DNA of 64,000 nucleotides from Halomonas sp. (lineage in GTDB: Bacteria; Pseudomonadota; Gammaproteobacteria; Pseudomonadales; Halomonadaceae): the NCBI RefSeq assembly GCF_033549285.1, contig NZ_JAWSUJ010000011.1:1757-65756 (forward strand). Reading direction: 5' to 3'. Made by a program: the position numbers and the translations under genes. Below the pieces are notes generated by a model that saw nothing but the letters and a program-made list of their open reading frames with translations, had not been told where the DNA came from and did no database searches. Of the stretch, positions 5,044 through 53,809 are shown in pieces. Within the stretch, counting starts at the first letter, position 1; each line of letters opens with the position of its first letter.

Positions 5044-5423
5044 TGGTGGAGGCGGCGGGAATTGAACCCGCGTCCGCCGGCACTCACCCATTGGCTCTAC
5101 ATGCTTAGTTTCGTCTTTTGATTTAACGCGACTGGCTCCGACGAGCAGGATCCAGCCACGCGATTCCTCTGAGTTTTAACGACCGGCGAGAGGACACCAC
5201 CGATCGCGATCCCATCAGTCGTCGCTCGTATCCCCTCCGTGATGAATGGGCACATCACTTCGGGGCCGGGCTAGAAGCTAGCGGCGTTTAAGCTGCCAGC
5301 GCGCCCTGAGCGTAGTTGTCGTCGTTTGCGACTATTCAATCGTGATGTTGTATTTACGAGATACATCACGCTCTCGGCATGCACCTCAGGGATTGTCACC
5401 GGCGTCGAAACCGTGTCGCCCCC
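5044..5423 (-). ncRNA. ssrA: tmRNA (transfer-messenger RNA)
   Basis: The minus strand starts GGGGGCGACACGGUUUCGACGCC (5423 downward) and ends ...GGUUCAAUUCCCGCCGCCUCCACCA (5044). The tag reading frame GCA AAC GAC GAC AAC UAC GCU CAG GGC GCG CUG GCA GCU UAA (5329->5288) encodes ANDDNYAQGALAA. It lies directly downstream of smpB. Confidence 0.95.
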
Positions 5424-5463: not shown

Positions 5464-5955
5464 TCAGGCCTTGATTTGTTCCCGCATGATGCGGCCCTTC
5501 TGCCGCTGCCAGTCGCGGTCCTTCTCGGTGGCCCGCTTGTCGTGAAGCTTCTTGCCGGTCACCAGGGCCAGTTCGCACTTCACCCGGTTGTTCTTCCAGT
5601 AGAGCTTGAGCGGCACGCAGGTGTGCCCCTTCTCCTGGGTGCGCGAGAAGATCTTGGCGATCTCCTTGCGATGCAGCAGCAGCTTGCGGGTGCGCGTCGG
5701 GTCCGCCACCTCGTGGGTGCTGGCGGTGTTGAGCGGCATGACGTGGCTGCCCAGCAGCCAGGCCTCGCCGTTCTTGACCAGGATGTAGGTGTCGGTGAGC
5801 TGCGCCTTGCCGGCCCGCAGGCTCTTCACTTCCCAGCCGGCCAGCACCAGGCCGGCCTCGAAGGTCTCGTCGATGTGGTACTCGAAGCGAGCCTTCTTGT
5901 TCTGGGCGATGACGTTGTTGCCGGGCCCCTTGCTCTTGCCTTTCTTGTTGGCCAT
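5464..5955 (-). CDS. smpB: SsrA-binding protein SmpB
   Basis: Part of ORF 5464..6021, trimmed to the ATG at 5955. The sequence [50 protein letters not shown] is a canonical SmpB. Confidence 0.95.
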
Positions 5956-6083
5956 GAAACCTCGTGTCCTGTATCTGCCGGTGGCGCTGCCCCTTCGATG
6001 TGGGGGGAAGCGTGGTACCATTCAAGGCCTGAAATAACCGCTCATGATACGCCCTGGGCACTGTGAAGTCAGCGGAGAGCTCA

Positions 6084-13939: not shown

Positions 13940-14884
13940 TCAGCGCTGCAGGTGGTCCATCCGCCATGCCAGCGCCTCGGGCGTCGGCTGCCATCGCGGG
14001 TTCCTGGGTAGCACCAGTGGCTTGCCGTCGAGGCGGCAGAGCCAGTCGTTGTCGGGCACCAGAGCGTCGACTGCCTGGCTGACATGCCAGCGATGATCGG
14101 GGCCCGGGGCGATCAGGTGGTTGTCCATCGCCCAATGCAGGTTGGGCGTAAGTGCCAGGCCGTTCGTCGGTCGATCATCCTGGCAGACGGCGAAGGGGAT
14201 CAGGTGGGCCGCCTCCACCAGGTAGCGGTAGTCCGGGGTGATATAGCGCAGCCGGCTGGCTGCACAGCGATAGTCGTAGGCATCCAGCACCAGGGTCCGA
14301 AAGGCGGCGGAGCGGGCGTACTGCTGCCGTGATTCCTGGATGCTGCCCTTCAGCTTCTCGGGATGCTTCTCGTATTCGCTGCTGGCCAGCGCGCGATCGA
14401 GATATTCCGTCAGGCGTTCCAGGGCCAGGGGATCGTCGGAGAGGTAGTGCTGGGTCAGGAGCGTGCAGGCCTGGCGAGCAAGGTGGGTATCCTGAAGGGC
14501 GGCGAACAGCTCCGTATCGAGGCGGGCCGAGGCAAAGCGCGCCAGCAGGTTATCCAGTGACTTCGGTTGGCCGAGCTTGTCCGAGAGGGAAGCCAGGTCG
14601 GGCGCGTAGTCCGGTGACCAGAGTGGCCCGGCGGGACCCTGGTCATTGCGCAGGTGCCAGAGGGGGAGCTGAGGATTCGCGGCGTGTCTGTTCCCCGTGG
14701 CGGCCTCATAGAGGTCGTGGTAGCGGGCAAGCAGTCGCTTATCGATGACCACCTCGGGCGAGCCGAAATGCCCCGACTGGATCTCGCAGATGAGGGCCAG
14801 CAGCAGGCACGGCTTGTTGGGCGCCGGACCAGCCTTGCGTTGCCCCACTCTGAGCCGTGTCAGGTACTCCAGCCGCGTATCCAT
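13940..14884 (-). CDS. HNH endonuclease with an N-terminal DNA-reader-like domain (type IV restriction-like)
   Basis: Part of ORF 13940..14935, trimmed to the ATG at 14884. The C-terminus YDYRCAASRL...VEAAHLIPF...NGLALTPNLHWAMDNHLI is an HNH_2-type motif. The N-terminus has APNKPCLLLALI and PLWHLRNDQ...LW, motifs I associate with the reader domain fused to HNH in ScoMcrA-like enzymes. Confidence 0.75.
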   Translation of the reverse strand: MDTRLEYLTRLRVGQRKAGPAPNKPCLLLALICEIQSGHFGSPEVVIDKRLLARYHDLYEAATGNRHAANPQLPLWHLRNDQGPAGPLWSPDYAPDLASLSDKLGQPKSLDNLLARFASARLDTELFAALQDTHLARQACTLLTQHYLSDDPLALERLTEYLDRALASSEYEKHPEKLKGSIQESRQQYARSAAFRTLVLDAYDYRCAASRLRYITPDYRYLVEAAHLIPFAVCQDDRPTNGLALTPNLHWAMDNHLIAPGPDHRWHVSQAVDALVPDNDWLCRLDGKPLVLPRNPRWQPTPEALAWRMDHLQR

Positions 14885-15011
14885 TGCACTCCCTACTTGC
14901 GATTCCTGTCCCCGCTGCCCAGCGGCGTGATCCACTCTGTCATGCCTTGCTCCTCAGGCATGAGGCTACCCTATATCACTCATGTGCTGGTGTGCACTCC
15001 GATGGCCCAGG

Positions 15012-16439: not shown

Positions 16440-20211
<3,772 letters not shown>

Positions 20212-45576: not shown

Positions 45577-46089
45577 TCAGCCCTGGGGTAACGAGTCCTG
45601 CGGTAACACGGGCCTCAGGTCCCGAGCGTCGACCCCGGCGATCAGGTTCGCCAGGGGTCGACCGTCGAGTACCAGGTGCGGGGCCAGCTCGGCCAGCGGC
45701 ACCAGCACGAAGGCGCGCCGGGCCATCTCAGGATGCGGCAGCGTCAGCCGTGGCAGCGTGACCCGCTGGTCATCGAAGAGTAGCAGGTCCAGGTCCAGGG
45801 TCCGGGCGCCCCAGCGCCGGCCGCGCACGCGGCCGTGGCGCTGTTCCAGGGCCTGCAGCTGGTCGAGCAGGGCGAGCGGCGAGAGCCGCGTCTCCAGCTG
45901 GGCCACGGCATTGATGTAGTCCGGCTGGTCGGCGGGCCCCACCGGCGCGCTGGCATAGAGCCGCGAGGCGGCGACCCGGCGGGTCAGGGGCAGGCGGTCG
46001 AGCTCCCCGAGGGCGCGCTCGACATGTGCCCGCGGGCCATCGAGGTTGCTGCCCAGGCCGATCCAGGCAGCGTGCCGTGGCGGGCTCAT
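45577..46089 (-). CDS. folK: 2-amino-4-hydroxy-6-hydroxymethyldihydropteridine diphosphokinase
   Basis: Part of ORF 45577..46227, trimmed to the ATG at 46089, which overlaps the pcnB stop. The sequence is ...AWIGLGSNLDGPRAHVERAL...YASAPVGPADQPDYINAVAQLET...RWGARTLDLDLLLF. Confidence 0.92.
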   Translation of the reverse strand: MSPPRHAAWIGLGSNLDGPRAHVERALGELDRLPLTRRVAASRLYASAPVGPADQPDYINAVAQLETRLSPLALLDQLQALEQRHGRVRGRRWGARTLDLDLLLFDDQRVTLPRLTLPHPEMARRAFVLVPLAELAPHLVLDGRPLANLIAGVDARDLRPVLPQDSLPQG

Positions 46090-47483
46090 GTGTCGCTCGC
46101 GGGGCCCCGCGGCTTGCGGCGGCGACGGCGGCGCTTGCGCGGCTGACCGCTGCCCGCCGGGTCGGCGCCGACCTTGCCCAGCAGGCGGCGCTGCTCGTGC
46201 TCGTCGGCCTGCTGGAAGGCGGTCCACCAGTCGCCCAGGCCCGGTGCGATCTCGCCGGCCCCTTCGCGCAGCAGCAGGAAGTCGTAGGCGGCCCGGAAGC
46301 GCGGGTGCTCGCGGGTCTGGAAGACGCGCTTGCCGCGGCGCAGCGGCAGCCGCTGCTGCAGGTCCCAGATGTCGCGCATCGGCAGGCTGAAGCGCTTGGG
46401 AATGGAGATGTGCTGGAGCTGGCGCGAGACCACCTGCTGGGAGGCCGCCTGGAGCGCGGGGATGGGCGGCATGCCATCGGCCTCGAGGATCGCCTGGCGC
46501 TGCTGGACGGGAGCCCAGAGCAGGGCGGCGAACAGGAAGGCCGGCGTCACCGGGCGGTCCTCGGCGATGCGCCGGTCGGTGCTCTCCAGTGCCAGCTCGA
46601 CCAGGCGCTCGGCCCAGGGCAGATCCTCCATGGCCTCGTCGGCCTCGGGGAAGAGCATCGCGAAGAGCCCGTAGTCGCGCAGCAGGTGGAAGGTGGCCAC
46701 ACCCTGGCCAGCCATGAACAGCTTGAGGATTTCGTCGAACAGCCGCGCCGGGGGGATCTGCAGCAGCAGCGGCGCGGCGTCGTGGATGGGGGCCTCGGTG
46801 GCCGGGTCGAGGTGGAAGTCGAGCTTGGCGGCGAAGCGCACCGCCCTGAGCATCCGTACCGGGTCCTCGCGATAGCGGGTCGCCGGGTCGCCGATCAGCC
46901 GCAGGGTGCGGGCCTCGATGTCCTTTACGCCATCGGCGAAGTCGTGGATCGAGAAGTCGGCGATGTTGTAGTAGAGGGCATTGACGGTGAAGTCGCGGCG
47001 CAGGGCGTCTTCCTCGATGTTGCCCCAGACATTGTCGCGCAGCAGCAGGCCATCGTCCGACTGCTGGGAGATATGGTCGGCATGGTCATCGTTGGGCTTG
47101 CCGCGGAAGGTGGTGACCTCGATCACCTCGCGCCCGAAGCGGACGTGCACGATGCGGAAGCGCCGGCCGATGATGCGCGAGTTGCGAAACAGGTCCTTGA
47201 CCTGCTCCGGGGTGGCATCCGTGGCGACATCGAAGTCCTTGGGCATGTGGCCGAGCAGCGCATCGCGGATGCAACCGCCCACCAGGAAGGCCTGGAAGCC
47301 GGCATTGTGGAGCCGGTAGAGCACCTTGAGGGCGGCGTCGCTGAAGTGCTGACGCGAGACAGGGTGTTCCTGGCGGGGAATGATGCGCGGCCCGGTGTTG
47401 CCGGCCGGCGCATCCTGAGGGCCGAAGAGCGACTTGATGCGCTCGCCCGGACTCTGCAGAAAGCGGGTAAAACCTTTGATCAT
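46086..47483 (-). CDS. pcnB: poly(A) polymerase I
   Basis: Part of ORF 46086..47540. IIPRQEHPVSRQHFSDAALKVLYRLHNAGFQAFLVGGCIRD aligns to the E. coli PcnB N-terminal region. The ATG at 47483 gives a comparable N-terminal length; the GTG at 47540 is also possible. Confidence 0.92.
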   Translation of the reverse strand: MIKGFTRFLQSPGERIKSLFGPQDAPAGNTGPRIIPRQEHPVSRQHFSDAALKVLYRLHNAGFQAFLVGGCIRDALLGHMPKDFDVATDATPEQVKDLFRNSRIIGRRFRIVHVRFGREVIEVTTFRGKPNDDHADHISQQSDDGLLLRDNVWGNIEEDALRRDFTVNALYYNIADFSIHDFADGVKDIEARTLRLIGDPATRYREDPVRMLRAVRFAAKLDFHLDPATEAPIHDAAPLLLQIPPARLFDEILKLFMAGQGVATFHLLRDYGLFAMLFPEADEAMEDLPWAERLVELALESTDRRIAEDRPVTPAFLFAALLWAPVQQRQAILEADGMPPIPALQAASQQVVSRQLQHISIPKRFSLPMRDIWDLQQRLPLRRGKRVFQTREHPRFRAAYDFLLLREGAGEIAPGLGDWWTAFQQADEHEQRRLLGKVGADPAGSGQPRKRRRRRRKPRGPASDT

Positions 47484-47579
47484 GCGGCGATATCGACTCG
47501 CGGGACGCGGAAAGCGTTGAGTGTAGCCGACCACTGACACCTTGCAAAGCGCGGCACGGTGCCGAGGGTGGCCAGGAAG

Positions 47580-48080
47580 CAGAAAGGGGAGGCCATTGGC
47601 CTCCCCTGTAAGCAGGATGCAGCATCCCTGCTGCTGATTCTTCTTCGTGATGGCGCATCGCCCTGAATACGCACCACAGTCACCAAGGAGTGTTCAGGCA
47701 AGCGGTGTTGTTGTGTTTGTTGATGCTCCTGACGGCGACCGTCTCGTATTCAAAACAATAGTCCAACCACGACGGCATGGAAGCATGCCTCCTCCCGGCT
47801 TGTTGGTCTTGTTGCCGGGAGTGCACCTCGACGGCCCGTTGTCATTGTTGGTCGGCCGTACCCGGGTGCGTCGCGTCCTGATGGCTCCGGTGCTTCGAGC
47901 AGCTTGTTCTTGTTGGGGCCCGAAGGCCTCGCGCCGTGCCGATGCTGTTCTTGTTGTCGGCAAGCGCCGAAGTCGCAGGGGCCCGGGTGTCTTGTTGTTG
48001 TTGTCGGGTCGGGCCCTGTCACGCCTGGCTGTCCTGTTGTTGTTGTTGGCAGCGGGTGACATCCGGATTTGTTTTTCTTG
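47580..48080 (-). ncRNA. crcZ: candidate CrcZ-type sigma-54-dependent Hfq/Crc-titrating sRNA (about 0.5 kb)
   Basis: It lies in the cbrB-pcnB spacer, as crcZ does in Pseudomonas. It has a minus-strand -24/-12 promoter at 48106->48091, at least 8 A-rich (ARN)n tracts (AACAACAACAACA and similar), several of them in loops of GC stems, and a terminator hairpin at 47606->47586 followed by UUUCU. The ends are predicted, not mapped. Confidence 0.7.
47586..47606 (-). terminator. intrinsic terminator of the CrcZ-like sRNA
   Basis: GGGGAGGCC-AAU-GGCCUCCCC is followed by UUUCUGCUU on the minus strand. Confidence 0.7.
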
Positions 48081-48106: not shown

Positions 48107-48180
48107 TCAAAGAATAATATCTTAAAAAACAGATGGTTATTTCGGTGGAGAAAAGTTCACGCCCTGGCGTGCGGGTGGAG

Positions 48181-48231
48181 TGTTACCCGATCGGCCCCGT
48201 TGTGGGGCACGAGCTGTGTGGGAAGGTAACA
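48181..48231 (-). promoter_or_regulatory. putative CbrB upstream activating sequence (TGTTAC ... GTAACA)
   Basis: The inverted hexamers TGTTAC (48181-48186) and GTAACA (48226-48231) lie 75-125 nt upstream of the -24 element. An AT-rich block (48107-48150) lies in between. The half-sites match those reported for Pseudomonas CbrB, but the spacing is 39 nt rather than 14. Confidence 0.45.
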
Positions 48232-48320
48232 AATGGGGCAAACGGGGTGTCGGGAAGGAGGAAAGGCAGGCCCACGGACGATGCCGCGGGGCTTGCACCA
48301 TGGTCGCATGGCCGGCCGCC

Positions 48321-49686
<1,366 letters not shown>

Positions 49687-49709
<23 letters not shown>

Positions 49710-52647
49710 CGGTGCGTTCACCATGCTCTGGGTTGAGGGGCAGCCACAGGTGGATGCGGGTGCCCTTGGCCTGCCCGGGGGGCGGGGAGTCGATATCGAT
49801 CTGGCCGCCGTGCTCGGCAATGATGCTGTAGACCAGCGGCAGGCCGAGTCCCGTGCCTTCGCCGGGGGGCTTGGTGGTGGTGAAGGGCTCGAACAGGTGG
49901 TCGCGCACCCGCTCGTCGATGCCGTGCCCCTGGTCGGTGACGGTGACGTGAAGCCACTCGCCCTCTGGGGCGGCATCGATGACCACCTCGCCGCCCGGGG
50001 TGCTGGCATCGCGGGCATTGCCGAGCAGGTTGACCATCACCTGCAGCAGCCGCTGGGCATCGCCCTCGACCTCGAGGCCCGCCGGGCAGCGGTTGTGGTA
50101 GCGGATATCCTCCCCCGAGCGGGCCAGGTGGATCAAGTGCAGGGCCTCGTCGGTCAGCGAAGCCAGCGACACCGGAGCGAAGGGGCGGCCGGTCACGTGG
50201 CGGCCGCCGTGGGCGAACCCCACCAGCGACTCGACGATGCGCGAGATGCGGTCGGTGAGCTGCTGGATCTGGCTGGCGGTCTCCAGCACCTCCGGGTCAT
50301 CGGTATCGTAGCGCAGGTTCTGGGCCAGCGAGGAGATGCCGGTGACGGGGTTACCGATCTCGTGGGCCACGCCCGCCGCCAGCTGGCCGATGGAGGCCAG
50401 CCGGGCGGCATGCACCAGCTCGTCCTCCAGCCACTTCATCTCGCTGTGGTCCTCCACCAGGACCACGGTGCCGCCGCGCATCTCCTCGTCGGCCTCGAGC
50501 TCGGCCTTGTGCAGGCTCAGGTAGCGGGTGGTGCCGGCAAGCGTCACCGGCTGCTTGTAGAGATGGTCGTGATGCTCGAGGAGCACGCGCCCCAGCAGGT
50601 CCCCCCAGGGGGGCGGCAGGCCATCGCGGCGCGAGCCGACCACGCTGCTGCCGTCGATCCCGGAGAGCTCGGCGAGGGCGTCGTTCCACATCAGCAGCTC
50701 GTCGTCGACGCCGAAGGCGCACAGTCCCACCGGCAGTCGGGTGAGCATGCGGCGGTGGTAGCGGCGCAGGCCGTCGAGCTCACGGGCGAGCCCGGTCAGC
50801 CGGGTGCGATAGGCCTCCAGGCGGCTCTCGACGAAGTGGATGTCGTCGTTGGGCTCCAGGCCGCCGCGGCGATAGGGCAGGTGGCGGTCGACGATGTCCT
50901 GGGCCACCGAGGGGCCCATCAGCCCCGAGAGGTTGGCCTGGATGCGGTCGCGCAGCCGGCGCAGGGCATAGGGCCGGCCATCCAGCGGCGACAGGCCCAG
51001 GTCGGTCAGGGCGCGGTCGACCTCGCGACCGGCGACCTCCTCGCCCAGGGCGCGGGCCAGGTGGTGCTTGAACTCCTCGCCGTTGCCGGCCACCAGCGGC
51101 AGGCGCTTGGGACGGATCACCGCATCCACCGAGCAGGCCTCGGCCGCGGCCCGCTCCCCGGCGGAGGTGGGCGTGAGCAGCGAGACCAGGATGAGGGTCA
51201 GGATGTTGGCCGCCAGCGAGACCAGGGTCACCACGTACCATACCGGCTCGCCGGCCAGTGCCTCGAGGCCCGGCGGAAGCAGCACCAGGGCTGGAAAATC
51301 GCTCAGCAGGGGCACCCAGGTGCCGGCGAGCCACACCAGCACGCCCGCCGTCAGCCCGCTGACCATGCCCTTGCGGTTGGCGCCCGGCCAGTAGAGCAGC
51401 GCCAGCATGCCCGGCAGGCACTGGGCCATGCCGATGAAGGCGGCCAGCCCCAGGGTGGTGAGGTCGTGGTTCACCCCCACCAGGCGGTAGAAGAGCCAGC
51501 CGCCGAGGATCACCGCCACGATCAGGGCGCGGCGCAGCCAGCGCAGCCAGCGATAGAGGTCGGGCTGGTCCACCGGGGGGTGGGCGACCAGCACCAGGTG
51601 GTTGAGGATCATCCCCGACAGTGCCAGGGAGATGATGACCATGGTGCCGCTGGTAGCCGCCAGGCCGGCGATGAACACCAGCCCCTGGAGCCACAGCGAC
51701 TCGGAGAGCCCGTAGGCCAGGTAGGCGGTGCCGAGCCCGCCGGCATCGACCCCCAGGCGCTGGGCGGCCCACAGGATCAGCGGCACCGGCAGCGCCATCA
51801 GCAGCAGGAACAGCGGCAGCGTCCAGGCGGCCTGGAGGAGGGTGCGCCGCGAGAGGGTCTCGGCGAAGGTGATGTGGAACATGTGCGGCATCAGGAAGGC
51901 CGCGGCGAAGAACAGCAGCAGCAGGGTGCGCCACTGGGCCGGGTCGAGGTGGGCGACCCGCGCCTGGGCCGCGCGACCCGGCCCGTCCAGCCAGGCCTGG
52001 AGGTCCGCGGGGCCATCGAAGACCACGAACAGTGCGAAGGCCCCCAGGGCCAGCATGGCGACGAGCTTGACAAGCGACTCCAGGGCGATGACCGCGAGCA
52101 GGGTGTCGTGGCGGGCGTGGAGCCGGGTATGGCGGGCGCCGAAGAGGATGGCGAACAGCGCGATCAGCGCGTTGAACAGCAGGGCCAGCAGGGCCGGTGA
52201 GGCGGTGCCGGTCATCAGGTAGATGGTGTCGCCCAGGGTCTGCACCTGGAGGGCCAGCAGCGGCAGTACGGCCAGCAGGCTGACCAGGGTGATCAGGGTG
52301 CCGACCCAGCGCGAGCGGAAGCGGAAGGCGAAGAGGTCGGCGAGCGAGGCCAGCTGGTAGGTACGGGTCATGCGCTGGATCGGCACCAGCAGGACCGGGG
52401 CGAGCAGGAAGGCGCCCGCCACCCCCAGGTAGTAGGCGAGGTAGCCGTAGCCGGCATTGCCGGCCAGCTCCAGGCTGCCGTAGATCGCCCAGGCGCTGGC
52501 GTAGACGCCCAGCGCCAGGGTGTAGACCGCCGGGTGGCGGGCGATGCGCGTGGGAATCCAGTGCCGCTCCACCGCCAGGGCAACGAGGAACAGCAGCAGC
52601 AGGTAGCCGCTGCCGAGGGCCAGCAGGCCGCCGAGGCTAGCGTTCAT
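49687..52647 (-). CDS. cbrA: sensor histidine kinase CbrA (SLC5/sodium-solute-symporter-like domain, PAS, HisKA, HATPase)
   Basis: ORF 49687..52647 is 986 aa. It has about 13 N-terminal TM helices of SSSF type, a PAS domain, an H-box ([18 protein letters not shown]) and N/G boxes (GNARDA, GTGLGL). The architecture and size are diagnostic of CbrA. Confidence 0.9.
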
Positions 52648-52813
52648 CGAGCTTCCTCTTCTGCTCCAGCCACAGGGTCAGGGCGATCAACACGCCCCAG
52701 ATGACGAAGGGGCGGTACCAGGCCACCTCGGGGCTGGCCCAGCCGCTCATCAGCAGCGGCGAGAGCAGGTAGCCGCCGAAGACCAGGAACAGCATGATGC
52801 GATAGACGTACAT
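52637..52813 (-). CDS. cbrX: small two-TM membrane protein overlapping the cbrA start (cbrX-like)
   Basis: This ORF is not in the supplied track because it is under 60 aa. I translated it by hand: ATG at 52813, [61 protein letters not shown] at 52639-52637. The cbrA ATG (52647) lies inside its last codons (GATGAACGCTAG), which suggests translational coupling. Confidence 0.55.
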   Translation of the reverse strand: MYVYRIMLFLVFGGYLLSPLLMSGWASPEVAWYRPFVIWGVLIALTLWLEQKRKLDER

Positions 52814-52825
52814 GGCGGGCTCCTC

Positions 52826-53719
52826 TCAGGGCGCGAGGCTGCCGGCCTGGCGGTGGGCCTCGGCGCGCAGCCGGGTGATCTCCCAGTGGGCGACGGCCCA
52901 GCGCAGCTGCTCCGCCACCGGGGCCTTGGCAAGCTCCCGGGGCGGGGCCTGGTCCAGCGCGGCCAGGGCCGCGTGCAGCAGCGGGCGCACCGCATCGTCC
53001 CGCTCCGGCAGGGCCGGTGCCAGGTTCTGCTTGGAGAGCTTCTGGCCGTCCTCGCCGATGATCAGCGGCAGGTGCAGGTAGCGCGGTTCGGGATAGCCCA
53101 GGGCGTGCTGCAGCTGGCGCTGCCAGGGGGTGTTGTCGAGCAGGTCGAAGCCCCTCACCACGTCGCTGATGCCCTGCTCGGCATCGTCGACCACCACGGC
53201 GAGCTGGTAGGCCCAGAGGCCGTCCTTGCGCTGGAGCACCACGTCGCCGAGCTCGGCCGGGTCGAAGCACTGCTCGCCGAACAGCCGGTCCTGCCAGACC
53301 ACCGGTCGCAGGCCCAGGTCGCTGCGCAGCCGCCAGGCCACCGGCTTGCCGGGTTCGCGCACCCCATCCCGGCACCAGCCGGGGTAGACGCGATGCTCGC
53401 GCCACTGACGGCGCGAGCAGCTGCAGGGGTAGGCGAGCCCCAGGCCCTTGAGTCGCTCCAGGGCGGCGGCATAGGCGTCGTTTCGCTCATGCTGCCAGGT
53501 GACCGGGCCGTCCCAGTGCAGGCCGAAGGCCTCCAGCTGGCGCAGGATGGTGTCGGCGGCCCCGGCGGGGCAGCGCGGCGGGTCGATGTCCTCGATGCGA
53601 AGTAGCCACTCGCCGCCTGCCCGGCGGGCATCCAGGAAGCTGGCCAGGGCCGCCACCAGGGAGCCGAAGTGCAGGGGCCCCGAGGGGGTCGGCGCGAAGC
53701 GTCCCCGGTAGGCGCTCAC
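52826..53719 (-). CDS. gluQ: tRNA glutamyl-Q(34) synthetase GluQRS
   Basis: Part of ORF 52826..53752. An in-frame GTG at 53719 gives (M)[31 protein letters not shown], aligning with E. coli YadB. The TTG at 53752 is the alternative start. It lies downstream of dksA, as in E. coli. Confidence 0.9.
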
Positions 53720-53809
53720 CGGTTTCCCCCGTCGCGTAGGGCCGACATGCAAACGGGCACCCTGGGGTGCCCGTCGCGGGGTGGGATTGCGGAGACCGGC
53801 ATGGCCGCC

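What the first reader, a model, noticed from the sequence alone, without database searches (positions are those of the whole stretch)
47580..48080. Long CrcZ-type sponge sRNA candidate in the cbrB-pcnB spacer: sigma-54 promoter, at least 8 (ARN)n tracts, terminator
Seen in the sequence: the 837-bp gap between the cbrB stop (48321) and the pcnB ATG (47483) has no credible ORF. Its only ORF is a Cys/Leu/Val/Arg-rich 156-aa plus-strand frame. Read on the minus strand, it contains these elements in order. First is TGGCACgccacCTGCT (48106->48091), with a predicted start near 48080. Then come A-rich tracts: AAGAAAAACAAAU (48067-48079), CAACAACAACAACA (48035-48048), GACAACAACAACAAGACA (47988-48005), GACAACAAGAACAGCA (47943-47958), CCAACAAGAACAAGCUG (47900-47916), ACCAACAAUGACAACGG (47836-47852), AACAAGACCAACAA (47800-47813) and CAUCAACAAACACAACAACAC (47705-47725). 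Last is the hairpin GGGGAGGCC-AAU-GGCCUCCCC followed by UUUCU (47606->47581). Several tracts sit in loops of short GC stems (CCCGGC/GCCGGG at 47794-47819; GCCGA/UCGGC at 47938-47961). The four tracts between 47900 and 48050 recur about every 45 nt, as if a stem-loop module had been duplicated. From established knowledge, the cbrB-pcnB spacer in Pseudomonas encodes CrcZ. CrcZ is a CbrB/RpoN-dependent sRNA whose AANAANAA motifs sequester Hfq (with Crc) to relieve carbon catabolite repression, and (ARN)n is the Hfq distal-face motif. My inference is that this is a longer, more motif-rich functional equivalent in a non-Pseudomonas (Halomonas-like) genome. I am not aware of such an sRNA having been described there.
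Basis: partly seen in the sequence, partly recalled or inferred. Interest (0 to 1): 0.8.

Follow-up and report, generated by a model that had tools for sequence, protein, structure and literature searches.

The report
CrcZ-like Hfq sponge RNA in Halomonas
Between cbrB and pcnB, this Halomonas genome carries a conserved gene for a roughly 500-nt non-coding RNA built like Pseudomonas CrcZ, which suggests that the CbrAB/Hfq carbon-source control circuit, described in reviews as unique to pseudomonads, also operates in halomonads.

Summary
The cbrB-pcnB spacer (minus strand) contains, in order:
- CbrB-type enhancer half-sites (TGTTAC and GTAACA);
- an AT-rich stretch;
- a sigma-54 promoter (48106-48091);
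- a predicted RNA of about 500 nt (48079-47581) with five strict and four degenerate A-rich tracts;
- a strong terminator;
- a separate conserved pcnB promoter-like element.

AANAANAA occurs 10 times in the RNA, against 0.23 in shuffles of the RNA itself.

The same layout appears in eight Halomonadaceae genomes and in 58 metagenomic loci, 49 of which hold the full-length RNA (44 unique sequences with the window). The A-A positions of the tracts are almost invariant, while the third position varies as freely as background. The tracts are predicted to be unpaired, and no reading frame is maintained. This is the signature of Hfq distal-face (A-R-N)n sites.

The flanking genes are full orthologues of the Pseudomonas locus (cbrX-cbrA-cbrB ... 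pcnB-folK-panB). The Rfam CrcZ model does not recognise the RNA (11 bits, threshold 95). The RNA also has its own near-invariant 3' domain, which Pseudomonas CrcZ lacks.

My verdict is a diverged positional orthologue and functional equivalent of CrcZ, not described in the searchable literature. Expression, CbrB dependence, Hfq binding and the presence of Crc are untested.

The parts
52637..52813 (-). cbrX-like small ORF (58 aa) overlapping the cbrA start
   Evidence: Translation. A 58-59 aa gene is called at the same place in 7 of 8 Halomonadaceae loci. cbrX is described in P. putida in PMC6591292 (abstract).
49687..52647 (-). cbrA orthologue (sensor kinase, 986 aa)
   Evidence: HisKA and HATPase_c domains. 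It is 51% identical over residues 27-986 to Pseudomonas CbrA.
48321..49709 (-). cbrB orthologue (sigma-54 activator; the real protein is 462 aa, and the longer ORF reaching 50018 is an artefact)
   Evidence: Response_reg, Sigma54_activat and AAA_lid_14 domains. It is 92-94% identical to Halomonas proteins of 462 aa, one relative being named CbrB, and 63-65% identical to Pseudomonas CbrB.
48180..48231 (-). Enhancer-like inverted repeat with CbrB-type half-sites: TGTTAC (48231-48226) and GTAACA (48186-48181)
   Evidence: Coordinates. The blocks TGTTACCTTCCCACACA and GGTAACAC are nearly invariant in 9 of 9 genomes. The P. putida CbrB subsites are F=TGTTAC and R=GTAACA (PMC6296734). CbrB binding here is inferred.
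48107..48150 (-). AT-rich stretch between enhancer and promoter (possible IHF bending site)
   Evidence: It is AT-rich in all 9 genomes within otherwise GC-rich DNA. No strict IHF consensus was found. The IHF role is inferred by analogy with PMC6296734.
48091..48106 (-). Sigma-54 (-24/-12) promoter TGGCACGCCACCTGCT
   Evidence: It is conserved in all 9 genomes. In the metagenomic loci it lies 326-372 nt upstream of the core block.
47581..48079 (-). Predicted CrcZ-like RNA, about 500 nt
   Evidence: The 5' end is placed 27 nt after the T of TGGCAC, the same offset at which the Rfam CrcZ model starts in Pseudomonas. The 3' end is at the terminator. There are 44 unique homologues of 463-509 nt. 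No conserved ORF exists.
48069..48079 (-). Tract 1, AAGAAAAACAA, at the extreme 5' end and unpaired
   Evidence: The A positions are invariant in 44 of 44 sequences. Unpaired in the fold.
48035..48048 (-). Tract 2, CAACAACAACAACA, in a hairpin loop
47988..48005 (-). Tract 3, GACAACAACAACAAGACA, in the loop of the GGGCCCG/CGGGCCC stem
47943..47958 (-). Tract 4, GACAACAAGAACAGCA, in the loop of the GCCGA/UCGGC stem
47900..47916 (-). Tract 5, CCAACAAGAACAAGCUG, in a hairpin loop
47836..47852 (-). Tract 6, ACCAACAAUGACAACGG. It is degenerate in the window but canonical AACAAnAACAA in most homologues. It lies in a hairpin loop.
47800..47813 (-). Tract 7, AACAAGACCAACAA, in the loop of the CUCCCGG/CCGGGAG stem
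   Evidence: The stem covaries, with C-G changing to U-A in 5-7 sequences per pair; 86% of cells are paired.
47705..47725 (-). Tract 8, CAUCAACAAACACAACAACAC, in the apical insertion of the 3' helix. The insertion is missing in the Vreelandella-like clade.
47638..47645 (-). Tract 9, AAGAAGAA, single-stranded between the 3' helix and the GGA hairpin
47646..47772 (-). Halomonadaceae-specific 3' domain: a long helix formed by UCGUGGUUGGAYUAUUGUUUUGAAUACGAG (47772-47743) and GACUGYGGUGCGUAUUCARGGCGAUGYGCCAUCAYGA (47681-47646)
   Evidence: The domain is near-invariant in the 9 protein-anchored genomes. The helix is 98% paired, and its upper part has compensatory changes, for example G-C/C-G at 21/21. 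A covariance model of it finds nothing in Pseudomonas crcZ. Its function is unknown.
47619..47634 (-). Hairpin GCAGCA-GGGA-UGCUGC with an invariant GGA in the loop
47581..47606 (-). Intrinsic terminator GGGGAGGCC-AAU-GGCCUCCCC followed by UUUCU
   Evidence: Found by the scan. It is conserved, with compensatory and G-U changes.
47520..47547 (-). Conserved sigma-70-like element TTGCAA-N16-TACACT, probably pcnB's own promoter
   Evidence: CTTTGCAAG...GGTCGGCTACACTCA is conserved in 9 of 9 genomes; coordinates. It falls below the scan threshold (8 of 12), so the promoter role is inferred.
46086..47483 (-). pcnB (poly(A) polymerase, 465 aa)
   Evidence: PolyA_pol domains. It is 50-56% identical to the Pseudomonas and Gilvimarinus PcnB. 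Followed by folK, panB and panC.

Best explanation
This is the Halomonas counterpart of CrcZ: a non-coding RNA of about 500 nt transcribed from a sigma-54 promoter that CbrB activates. The proposed mechanism has three steps.

1. When preferred carbon sources run out, CbrA phosphorylates CbrB. CbrB binds the TGTTAC/GTAACA enhancer 75-125 bp upstream of the promoter and, across an AT-rich bendable spacer, activates RpoN-RNA polymerase.
2. The RNA displays eight to nine single-stranded AAN-repeat tracts, at its 5' end and in the loops of GC-rich hairpins. Each tract can occupy the distal (A-R-N) face of an Hfq hexamer.
3. One RNA therefore soaks up several Hfq hexamers, with Crc if the organism has it. 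This releases catabolic mRNAs whose ribosome-binding sites Hfq had been blocking.

Shown here: the sequence architecture, its conservation, the triplet selection pattern, the predicted accessibility, the orthology of the flanking genes, and the absence of coding potential.

Inferred only: transcription, dependence on CbrB and RpoN, Hfq binding, and the physiological output.
For: Orthologous context:
- The locus is cbrX-cbrA-cbrB-[RNA]-pcnB-folK-panB-panC.
- CbrA is 51%, CbrB 63-65% and PcnB 50-53% identical to the Pseudomonas proteins.
- All 8 Halomonadaceae genomes examined have the same gene order, and 7 of 8 also have the cbrX-like gene called.

Promoter:
- TGGCAC-N5-CTGCT and the CbrB-type half-sites (PMC6296734) are conserved in 9 of 9 genomes.
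- An nhmmer profile of the Halomonas spacer aligns to the Pseudomonas crcZ promoter and first tracts at E about 4e-5.
- The predicted +1 is at the same offset as the start of the Rfam CrcZ model in Pseudomonas.

Tracts:
- The window has 17 AANAANAA matches against 0.97 expected. The RNA has 10 against 0.23 in shuffles of itself.
- In 44 unique homologues the entropy is 0.088 bit at the AA positions, 0.784 at the N positions and 0.818 in the background.
- Mean unpaired probability is 0.90 in the tracts and 0.36 elsewhere.

Not coding:
- Inter-tract distances fall in all three residues modulo 3, and the lengths of open frames are not conserved.

Discrete unit:
- A conserved, covarying terminator is followed by a conserved promoter-like element upstream of pcnB.

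Precedent:
- PAO1 CrcZ is 407 nt and has six (A-R-N)n tracts with n>=4. It binds the Hfq distal face and acts as a decoy (PMC4063720).
Against: - There is no expression or binding data of any kind.
- The Rfam CrcZ model does not recognise the RNA (11.3 bits against a threshold of 95).
- Outside the promoter and first tracts, no sequence homology to Pseudomonas CrcZ was detected.
- A Crc orthologue in Halomonas was not found. None of the 120 best hits to PAO1 Crc, which reach down to 58% identity, is named Halomonas. Below about 46% identity the hits merge into generic exonuclease III proteins.
- The spacing between the enhancer half-sites is 39 bp between the hexamers. How this compares with the Pseudomonas crcZ enhancer was not measured.
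- The terminator U-tract is short (UUUCU), so read-through into pcnB is possible.
- The near-invariant 3' domain has no role in this model.
Confidence: 0.8

Rival explanations
1. The element is mainly a regulated leader for pcnB. Transcription from the CbrB/sigma-54 promoter would read through a leaky terminator, coupling poly(A) polymerase synthesis to carbon status. The A-tracts would serve Hfq-dependent control of pcnB in cis.
For: The RNA gene is always immediately upstream of pcnB and on the same strand, in Halomonadaceae, Pseudomonas and Cellvibrionaceae. The U-tract after the terminator is short and interrupted (UUUCU).
Against: The terminator stem is strong (10 bp, 8 G-C) and is maintained by compensatory changes. 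A conserved TTGCAA-N16-TACACT element lies between the terminator and pcnB in 9 of 9 genomes. In Pseudomonas the syntenic gene yields a discrete RNA (PMC4063720, PMC5113210).
Confidence: 0.08
2. The RNA has a different or additional primary activity carried by its near-invariant 3' domain. Candidates are base-pairing with mRNAs, binding another protein, or acting as a turnover switch. The A-tracts would then only recruit Hfq as a chaperone rather than titrate it.
For: About 75 nt in two blocks (47772-47743 and 47681-47638) are more conserved than any tract in the nine protein-anchored genomes. These blocks are absent from Pseudomonas CrcZ. The AU-rich segment GGAUUAUUGUUUUGAAUAC is exceptional in an RNA that is 14% U. 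A hairpin with an invariant GGA loop follows.
Against: GGA motifs are not enriched: 10 observed against 10.7 in shuffles, so a CsrA/RsmA sponge is unlikely. The AU-rich segment is predicted to be buried in a long helix that is 98% paired. The multiplicity and periodic conservation of the tracts are what a titrating decoy needs, and are more than a chaperone handle needs.
Confidence: 0.08
3. The region is protein-coding (one of the 90-156-aa frames), or is a non-functional A-rich remnant.
For: Several open frames of 51-156 aa overlap the gap. Variation at the third position of AAN could mimic codon wobble.
Against: Open-frame lengths range from 48 to 166 aa among homologues, on either strand. 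The AAN register shifts among all three frames between tracts, and differently in different genomes. The 138-aa minus-strand frame starts upstream of the predicted +1. Strong purifying selection and covarying stems exclude a remnant.
Confidence: 0.02

Closest known systems
CrcZ of Pseudomonas aeruginosa and P. putida (Rfam RF01675)
   Same: - It lies between cbrB and pcnB on the same strand.
- It has a sigma-54 promoter preceded by TGTTAC/GTAACA CbrB subsites and an AT-rich spacer.
- The first A-rich tract sits at the very 5' end.
- It carries multiple single-stranded (A-R-N)n tracts.
- It ends in a GGGGAG...CUCCCC-type terminator.
- The promoter and first tracts can be aligned.
   Different: - It is about 500 nt, against 407 nt in PAO1.
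- It has 5 strict plus 4 degenerate tracts, against six.
- It is GC-rich (59%), with the tracts displayed in GC-clamped hairpin loops.
- It has a near-invariant 3' domain of about 125 nt that Pseudomonas lacks.
- It scores 11 bits against the Rfam model, whose threshold is 95.
- The host is in Halomonadaceae (Oceanospirillales in NCBI taxonomy), where no clear Crc orthologue was found.
CrcY and CrcX (P. putida, P. syringae) and CrcZ/CrcY of Azotobacter vinelandii
   Same: They are the same kind of RNA: CbrB/sigma-54-driven, A-rich, and antagonists of Hfq/Crc (PMC6292655 and PMC8871633).
   Different: Those paralogues sit at other loci. No second copy was seen in this 64-kb window, and the rest of the genome could not be searched.
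Unannotated cbrB-pcnB spacer RNA candidates in Cellvibrionaceae (Gilvimarinus agarilyticus, L005; an uncultured Cellvibrionaceae MAG, L006)
   Same: cbrA and cbrB orthologues (38-43% and 57-60% identical) are followed by TGTTAC/GTAACA sites, a sigma-54 promoter, an A-rich segment and a terminator. pcnB follows in L005.
   Different: The Gilvimarinus candidate is shorter (about 370 nt) and almost entirely A-rich, with about 30 overlapping AANAANAA matches. It has no GC hairpin scaffolds and lacks the Halomonas 3' domain. It has not been described in the literature I could search.
CsrB/RsmY/RsmZ protein-sponge RNAs
   Same: The concept is the same: many copies of a short protein-binding motif in hairpin loops titrate a global translational repressor.
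   Different: Their motif is GGA, for CsrA/RsmA. GGA is not enriched here.

Membership tests
Rfam CrcZ (RF01675) | Covariance-model score at or above the gathering threshold (95 bits) | tested here: not met
   There is no hit at the gathering threshold. The best permissive hit is 11.3 bits, E=2, covering only model positions 277-378 at 47571-47733. Positive controls: Pseudomonas L001, L002 and L004 score 234-350 bits. The five Halomonadaceae loci searched (L081, L082, L083, L085, L087, L088 minus none; six in fact) and the two Cellvibrionaceae loci give no hit.
CrcZ-type sRNA (functional class) | Encoded between cbrB and pcnB, on the same strand, downstream of cbrX-cbrA-cbrB | tested here: met
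   The gene order is the same in all 8 Halomonadaceae genomes, with the cbrX-like gene called in 7 of them.
CrcZ-type sRNA (functional class) | Sigma-54 (-24/-12) promoter with upstream CbrB subsites (TGTTAC / GTAACA) and an intervening bendable region | tested here: met
   The promoter is at 48106-48091 and the half-sites at 48231-48226 and 48186-48181. They are conserved in 9 of 9 genomes. The motif definitions come from PMC6296734. This is a sequence-level test only. A strict IHF consensus was not found.
CrcZ-type sRNA (functional class) | Several single-stranded (A-R-N)n tracts with n>=4 (six in PAO1 CrcZ) | tested here: met
   There are five strict tracts plus four interrupted or short ones. 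Conservation is periodic with AAN. Unpaired probability is 0.90.
CrcZ-type sRNA (functional class) | Discrete non-coding transcript ending at an intrinsic terminator | tested here: inconclusive
   A terminator is present and covaries. There is no conserved ORF. A separate pcnB promoter-like element follows. The transcript itself was not observed.
CrcZ-type sRNA (functional class) | Expression depends on CbrB and RpoN and rises on non-preferred carbon sources | not testable with these tools
   This needs Northern blots or RNA-seq in the wild type and in cbrB and rpoN mutants.
CrcZ-type sRNA (functional class) | Binds the distal face of Hfq and relieves Hfq-mediated translational repression | not testable with these tools
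   This needs EMSA or co-immunoprecipitation with Halomonas Hfq and a Y25D variant. hfq is not in the window.
Hfq/Crc catabolite-repression system | A Crc orthologue is present in the same genome | tested here: inconclusive
   crc is not in the window or in any fetched locus. The query, recalled from memory, proved 98% identical to NCBI 'Crc [P. aeruginosa]'. Its 120 best hits reach down to 58% identity and none is named Halomonas. Among the 50%-identity representatives only one full-length cluster, at 55%, stands out (Endozoicomonadaceae). The rest, at 46% or less, belong to a very large generic exonuclease III family. A Halomonas orthologue at about 47-57% identity cannot be excluded.
CsrB/RsmZ-type sponge | Enrichment of GGA / ANGGA motifs in loops | tested here: not met
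   GGA occurs 10 times against 10.7 in shuffles. A.GGA occurs once against 2.9.
Protein-coding gene | An open reading frame conserved in length and phase among homologues | tested here: not met

The most novel reading that the evidence does not exclude
The CbrAB-to-A-rich-decoy-RNA circuit is not a Pseudomonadaceae invention. It would be ancestral to a wider group that includes at least Halomonadaceae and Cellvibrionaceae. In Halomonas it may run without a canonical Crc co-repressor, making the RNA a pure Hfq sponge. The RNA has also acquired a lineage-specific, near-invariant 3' domain with a second, still unknown function, such as turnover control or an extra binding partner.
Probability: 0.3. 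Interest if true: 0.65.

Novelty: new member of a known kind. Interest (0 to 1): 0.5.

Why it matters
Recent reviews state that CbrAB and the cbrA-cbrB-crcZ synteny are 'unique to the Pseudomonadaceae' (PMC8871633). [quoted passage not shown] This locus, its counterparts in eight Halomonadaceae genomes and 58 metagenomic loci, and similar loci in Cellvibrionaceae show that at least the CbrAB/decoy-RNA half of the circuit is much more widespread.

This gives a concrete, testable handle on carbon-source hierarchy in Halomonas. The genus is used as an industrial chassis for polyhydroxyalkanoate production (PMC12164125), where catabolite repression limits the use of mixed feedstocks.

It also offers a natural comparison for asking what Crc adds to Hfq-based repression. 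The 44-sequence alignment could seed a new RNA family, since current Rfam-based annotation misses this RNA.

Tried and rejected
1. Rfam at gathering and permissive thresholds found no CrcZ membership. A 27-bit sroE hit on the plus strand (47577-47648) is just the terminator and GGA hairpins read backwards, and is below threshold.

2. The genome-contig scan with CbrB was swamped by generic sigma-54 activator motifs. It returned no close Halomonas genome, only Pseudomonas and Cellvibrionaceae CbrB loci, which still served as controls.

3. A covariance model of the 3' domain (R1) was searched against Pseudomonas, Gilvimarinus and paralogue loci with filters off. It found only unrelated palindromes that score on both strands, and nothing inside crcZ.

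4. The tandem-duplication origin of the tract modules was not supported. TRF finds nothing, and only short similarities recur.

5. The coding hypothesis was rejected.

6. The CsrA-sponge hypothesis was rejected.

7. The second cluster of AANAANAA at 5588-5949 lies in Lys/Asn-rich coding sequence, probably smpB, next to tmRNA. It is not a second sRNA.

8. The second sigma-54-like match at 17672-17687 lies inside a long ORF and is within chance expectation.

9. The search for Crc in Halomonas used two database searches, one representative search and one cluster look-up, and stayed inconclusive.

10. Ten literature searches found no prior description.
Full report
WHAT IS THERE

On the minus strand the window encodes the following, in order:
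- a tRNA-synthetase-like gluQRS gene (52826-53752);
- a 58-aa cbrX-like ORF (52813-52637) that overlaps the next gene;
- a 986-aa sensor kinase (52647-49687);
- a 462-aa sigma-54 activator (49709-48321);
- an 837-bp gap;
- pcnB (47483-46086), folK, panB and panC.

The activator is 92-94% identical to proteins of Halomonas denitrificans, H. daqiaonensis and H. aestuarii, so the organism is a Halomonas. One relative is annotated CbrB.

Against Pseudomonas loci, the kinase is 51% identical over almost its whole length to CbrA. The activator is 63-65% identical to CbrB, and PcnB is 50-53% identical. This is the Pseudomonas cbrX-cbrA-cbrB-crcZ-pcnB-folK-panB locus, gene for gene.

- TGGCACGCCACCTGCT (48106-48091) is one of two matches to TGGCAC-N5-YTGCW in the window.
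- AANAANAA occurs 17 times in the window against 0.97 expected, and 10 of these lie on the minus strand between 47638 and 48079.
- Judged against dinucleotide shuffles of the 499-nt RNA itself, 10 matches compare with 0.23 expected, and 0 of 1000 shuffles reach 10.
- The terminator scan independently reports the hairpin at 47607-47585, with 10 pairs of which 8 are G-C.

There are three small corrections.
- The gap holds several mechanical ORFs, not one.
- Only five tracts are strict (A-R-N)n with n>=4.
- The '45-nt module' is a loose spacing of 35-65 nt with only short flanking similarity. It is not a detectable tandem array.

IT IS A CONSERVED, DISCRETE, NON-CODING UNIT

I fetched the cbrB loci of eight Halomonadaceae: Halomonas denitrificans, H. 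elongata, H. beimenensis, Vreelandella venusta, Halovibrio variabilis, Billgrantia kenyensis, Franzmannia pantelleriensis and one widespread Halomonadaceae protein. All have the same gene order and a spacer of 840-960 bp.

Aligned, the spacers share these elements in order:
- TGTTACCTTCCCACACA, then GGTAACAC after a 31-nt spacer (39 nt between the TGTTAC and GTAACA hexamers);
- an AT-rich stretch;
- the sigma-54 promoter;
- AAGAAAAACAA exactly where transcription should start;
- five to nine A-rich tracts;
- two near-invariant blocks;
- a small hairpin with GGA in its loop;
- a terminator;
- then CTTTGCAAG-N-GGTCGGCTACACTCA, a -35/-10-like element, before pcnB.

TGTTAC and GTAACA are the F and R subsites that CbrB contacts at the P. 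putida crcZ, crcY and PP2810 promoters. Those promoters also need IHF and sigma-N (PMC6296734).

The terminator, followed by what looks like pcnB's own promoter, argues that the RNA is a separate unit rather than a pcnB leader.

A scan of metagenome contigs with a 24-nt piece of the conserved core returned 58 more loci. In nearly all of them the sigma-54 promoter lies 326-372 nt upstream of the core and the terminator starts 132-164 nt downstream of the core's first base. Together with the genomes and the window this gave 49 full-length RNAs, 44 of them unique, measuring 463-509 nt from the predicted +1.

One caveat applies. The invariance of the core in the metagenomic set follows from how the loci were retrieved. 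Its conservation is independent evidence only in the nine protein-anchored genomes. The tracts, promoter, terminator and second block were not used for retrieval.

THE SELECTION PATTERN POINTS TO HFQ

In the 44-sequence alignment the invariant columns of the tracts are A1 A2 - A4 A5 - A7 A8 - A10 A11, and so on. Mean column entropy is 0.088 bit at the AA positions. It is 0.784 bit at the third position, the same as the background of 0.818 bit.

This is not codon wobble. The distance between consecutive tracts takes all three values modulo 3 among homologues, and open-frame lengths vary from 48 to 166 aa on either strand.

The RNA is U-poor, at 14% U. In the predicted fold every tract sits at the free 5' end, in a hairpin loop closed by a GC-rich stem, or in a single-stranded linker. 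Across all 44 homologues the mean unpaired probability is 0.90 in the tracts and 0.36 elsewhere.

Projecting the window's fold onto the alignment gives 71.8% paired cells, against 37-44% when partners are slid. The covariation score is 0.151, against 0.054-0.076 for the slid controls. The clearest compensatory changes are in the tract-7 hairpin, the upper 3' helix and the terminator. The 5' hairpins are less well supported, partly because MAFFT aligns that variable part poorly.

An A-A-N repeat with a free third position, exposed many times on one RNA, is what the tripartite A-R-N pockets of the Hfq distal face recognise. It is also how PAO1 CrcZ works: 407 nt with six such tracts, binding Hfq and acting as a decoy (PMC4063720).

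RELATION TO CrcZ

Three lines of evidence support a positional orthologue.
- An nhmmer profile of the Halomonas spacer aligns to the Pseudomonas crcZ promoter region and first tracts at E about 4e-5.
- The predicted +1 at 48079 is 27 nt after the T of TGGCAC. The Rfam CrcZ model begins at the same offset in two Pseudomonas loci.
- The synteny is complete.

By the family's own test, however, the RNA is not a member of RF01675. The model scores 234-350 bits on three Pseudomonas controls. It finds nothing at threshold in the window, the six Halomonadaceae loci searched or the two Cellvibrionaceae loci. The best permissive hit here is 11.3 bits with E=2.

The roughly 125-nt 3' domain is specific to this lineage. 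It is a long helix formed by 47772-47743 and 47681-47646, with an apical insertion that carries tract 8 and is absent in the Vreelandella-like clade. A covariance model of this domain finds nothing in Pseudomonas crcZ.

I therefore treat this RNA as a diverged orthologue and a new sequence family of the CrcZ kind.

BEYOND HALOMONAS

Gilvimarinus agarilyticus and an uncultured Cellvibrionaceae MAG also have cbrA and cbrB orthologues. These are followed by TGTTAC/GTAACA sites, a sigma-54 promoter, an A-rich segment and a terminator. In Gilvimarinus pcnB follows, and the A-rich segment has about 30 overlapping AANAANAA matches in 250 nt.

NCBI taxonomy places these families in Oceanospirillales and Cellvibrionales, not Pseudomonadales. 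A 2022 review calls CbrAB and this synteny 'unique to the Pseudomonadaceae' (PMC8871633). Ten full-text searches found no description of CrcZ or CbrAB function in Halomonas or its relatives. The library excludes most subscription journals, so I cannot rule out a prior description.

Crc

Neither crc nor hfq lies in the window or in any fetched locus. I recalled the PAO1 Crc sequence from memory, and it proved 98% identical to NCBI's 'Crc [P. aeruginosa]'.

The 120 best database hits descend to 58% identity, and none is named Halomonas, although Halomonas genomes are densely represented in that database. Among 50%-identity representatives, only one full-length cluster at 55% stands apart. It comes from Endozoicomonadaceae (Parendozoicomonas, Sansalvadorimonas, Endozoicomonas). 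Everything at 46% or below belongs to a very large generic exonuclease III family.

So Halomonas has no Crc that is 58% or more identical to PAO1 Crc. An orthologue at about 47-57% identity cannot be excluded with the searches available. This leaves open whether the RNA titrates Hfq alone or an Hfq/Crc complex.

RIVALS

- A pcnB leader or dual-function read-through transcript is possible, because the U-tract is short. The conserved strong terminator and the downstream promoter-like element argue against it.
- A second function residing in the 3' domain is plausible but has no support of its own.
- A CsrA-type sponge is rejected, because GGA is not enriched.
- Coding is rejected.

VERDICT

The element is most likely a CbrB/sigma-54-driven, Hfq-titrating RNA of the CrcZ kind (confidence about 0.8). 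It is undescribed in Halomonadaceae and invisible to the current Rfam model.

It is a new member of a known kind rather than a new mechanism, so interest is moderate at 0.5. Three things give it value:
- it overturns the 'Pseudomonadaceae-only' view of the Cbr/CrcZ circuit;
- it bears on carbon-source control in an industrial chassis genus;
- it leaves two open questions, the role of the near-invariant 3' domain and whether Crc is present.

Noticed in passing
L005:5900-6460 (Gilvimarinus agarilyticus) and L006:5500-5830 (uncultured Cellvibrionaceae MAG): Downstream of the cbrB orthologues lie several TGTTAC/GTAACA sites, a sigma-54 promoter (L005 6060; L006 5621), an A-rich segment and a terminator. 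In L005 the segment has about 30 overlapping AANAANAA matches in 250 nt and is followed by pcnB. This looks like a third, very different-looking version of the CrcZ-type RNA, outside Pseudomonadaceae and missed by Rfam.
   Followed up: partly
window 47743-47772 and 47638-47681 (minus strand): Two near-invariant blocks are more conserved than the A-tracts. They form a long helix rich in G-U pairs and include the only AU-rich segment (GGAUUAUUGUUUUGAAUAC) of a U-poor RNA. They have no counterpart in Pseudomonas CrcZ, and their function is unknown. They could be an RNase E or turnover element, or a second binding site.
   Followed up: partly
window 47619-47634 (minus strand): The hairpin GCAGCA-GGGA-UGCUGC just before the terminator has an invariant GGA in its loop in all 44 homologues. 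It matches the CANGGAYG shape that I recall for CsrA/RsmA sites. GGA is not enriched in the RNA overall, so this may be only a structural element.
   Followed up: partly
L001:5813-5873 and L002:5813-5873: The Rfam family P36 (RF01679, 'Pseudomonas sRNA P36') hits the cbrB-crcZ spacer of two Pseudomonas loci. The hits sit over the TGTTAC/GTAACA enhancer and cbrB terminator region, upstream of the crcZ promoter. No equivalent hit occurs in Halomonadaceae.
   Followed up: no
window 5044-5423 (-) and 5464-5956 (-): A tmRNA gene (212 bits) lies immediately downstream of a Lys/Asn-rich ORF, most likely smpB. That ORF accounts for the only other cluster of AANAANAA matches in the window.
   Followed up: yes
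window 17672-17687 (-): A second TGGCAC-N5-CTGCT match (TGGCACAGGCCCTGCT) lies inside a long ORF. Two matches in the window are within what shuffles occasionally give (2 of 100), so it is probably chance.
   Followed up: partly
window 17338-20103 (-): A 921-aa ORF combines a CLP1-type P-loop domain with metallo-beta-lactamase domains, an unusual pairing. It overlaps a long plus-strand frame whose C-terminal third is dapB, so the gene calls here need sorting out.
   Followed up: no
window 48262-48290 (-); L081, L084, L087, L088 just after cbrB: A hairpin follows the cbrB stop codon. It is weak in the window (CCCGCGG-N6-CCGUGGG with a poor U-tract). In several relatives it is a clear GC hairpin followed by a T-run. 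This bears on whether cbrB-RNA co-transcripts form, as described for P. putida CrcZ*.
   Followed up: no
window 13940-14935 (-): A 331-aa ORF with an HNH_2 endonuclease domain lies next to a corA-like transporter gene. It may be a mobile or defence-related gene.
   Followed up: no
P0241, P0429, P0468, P0523 (Parendozoicomonas, Sansalvadorimonas, Endozoicomonas): Endozoicomonadaceae carry a 258-261-aa protein whose cluster representative (P0241) is 55% identical to P. aeruginosa Crc. It stands clearly apart from generic exonuclease III proteins (46% or less). It is a possible Crc orthologue outside Pseudomonadaceae, contrary to the statement in PMC10832556.
   Followed up: partly
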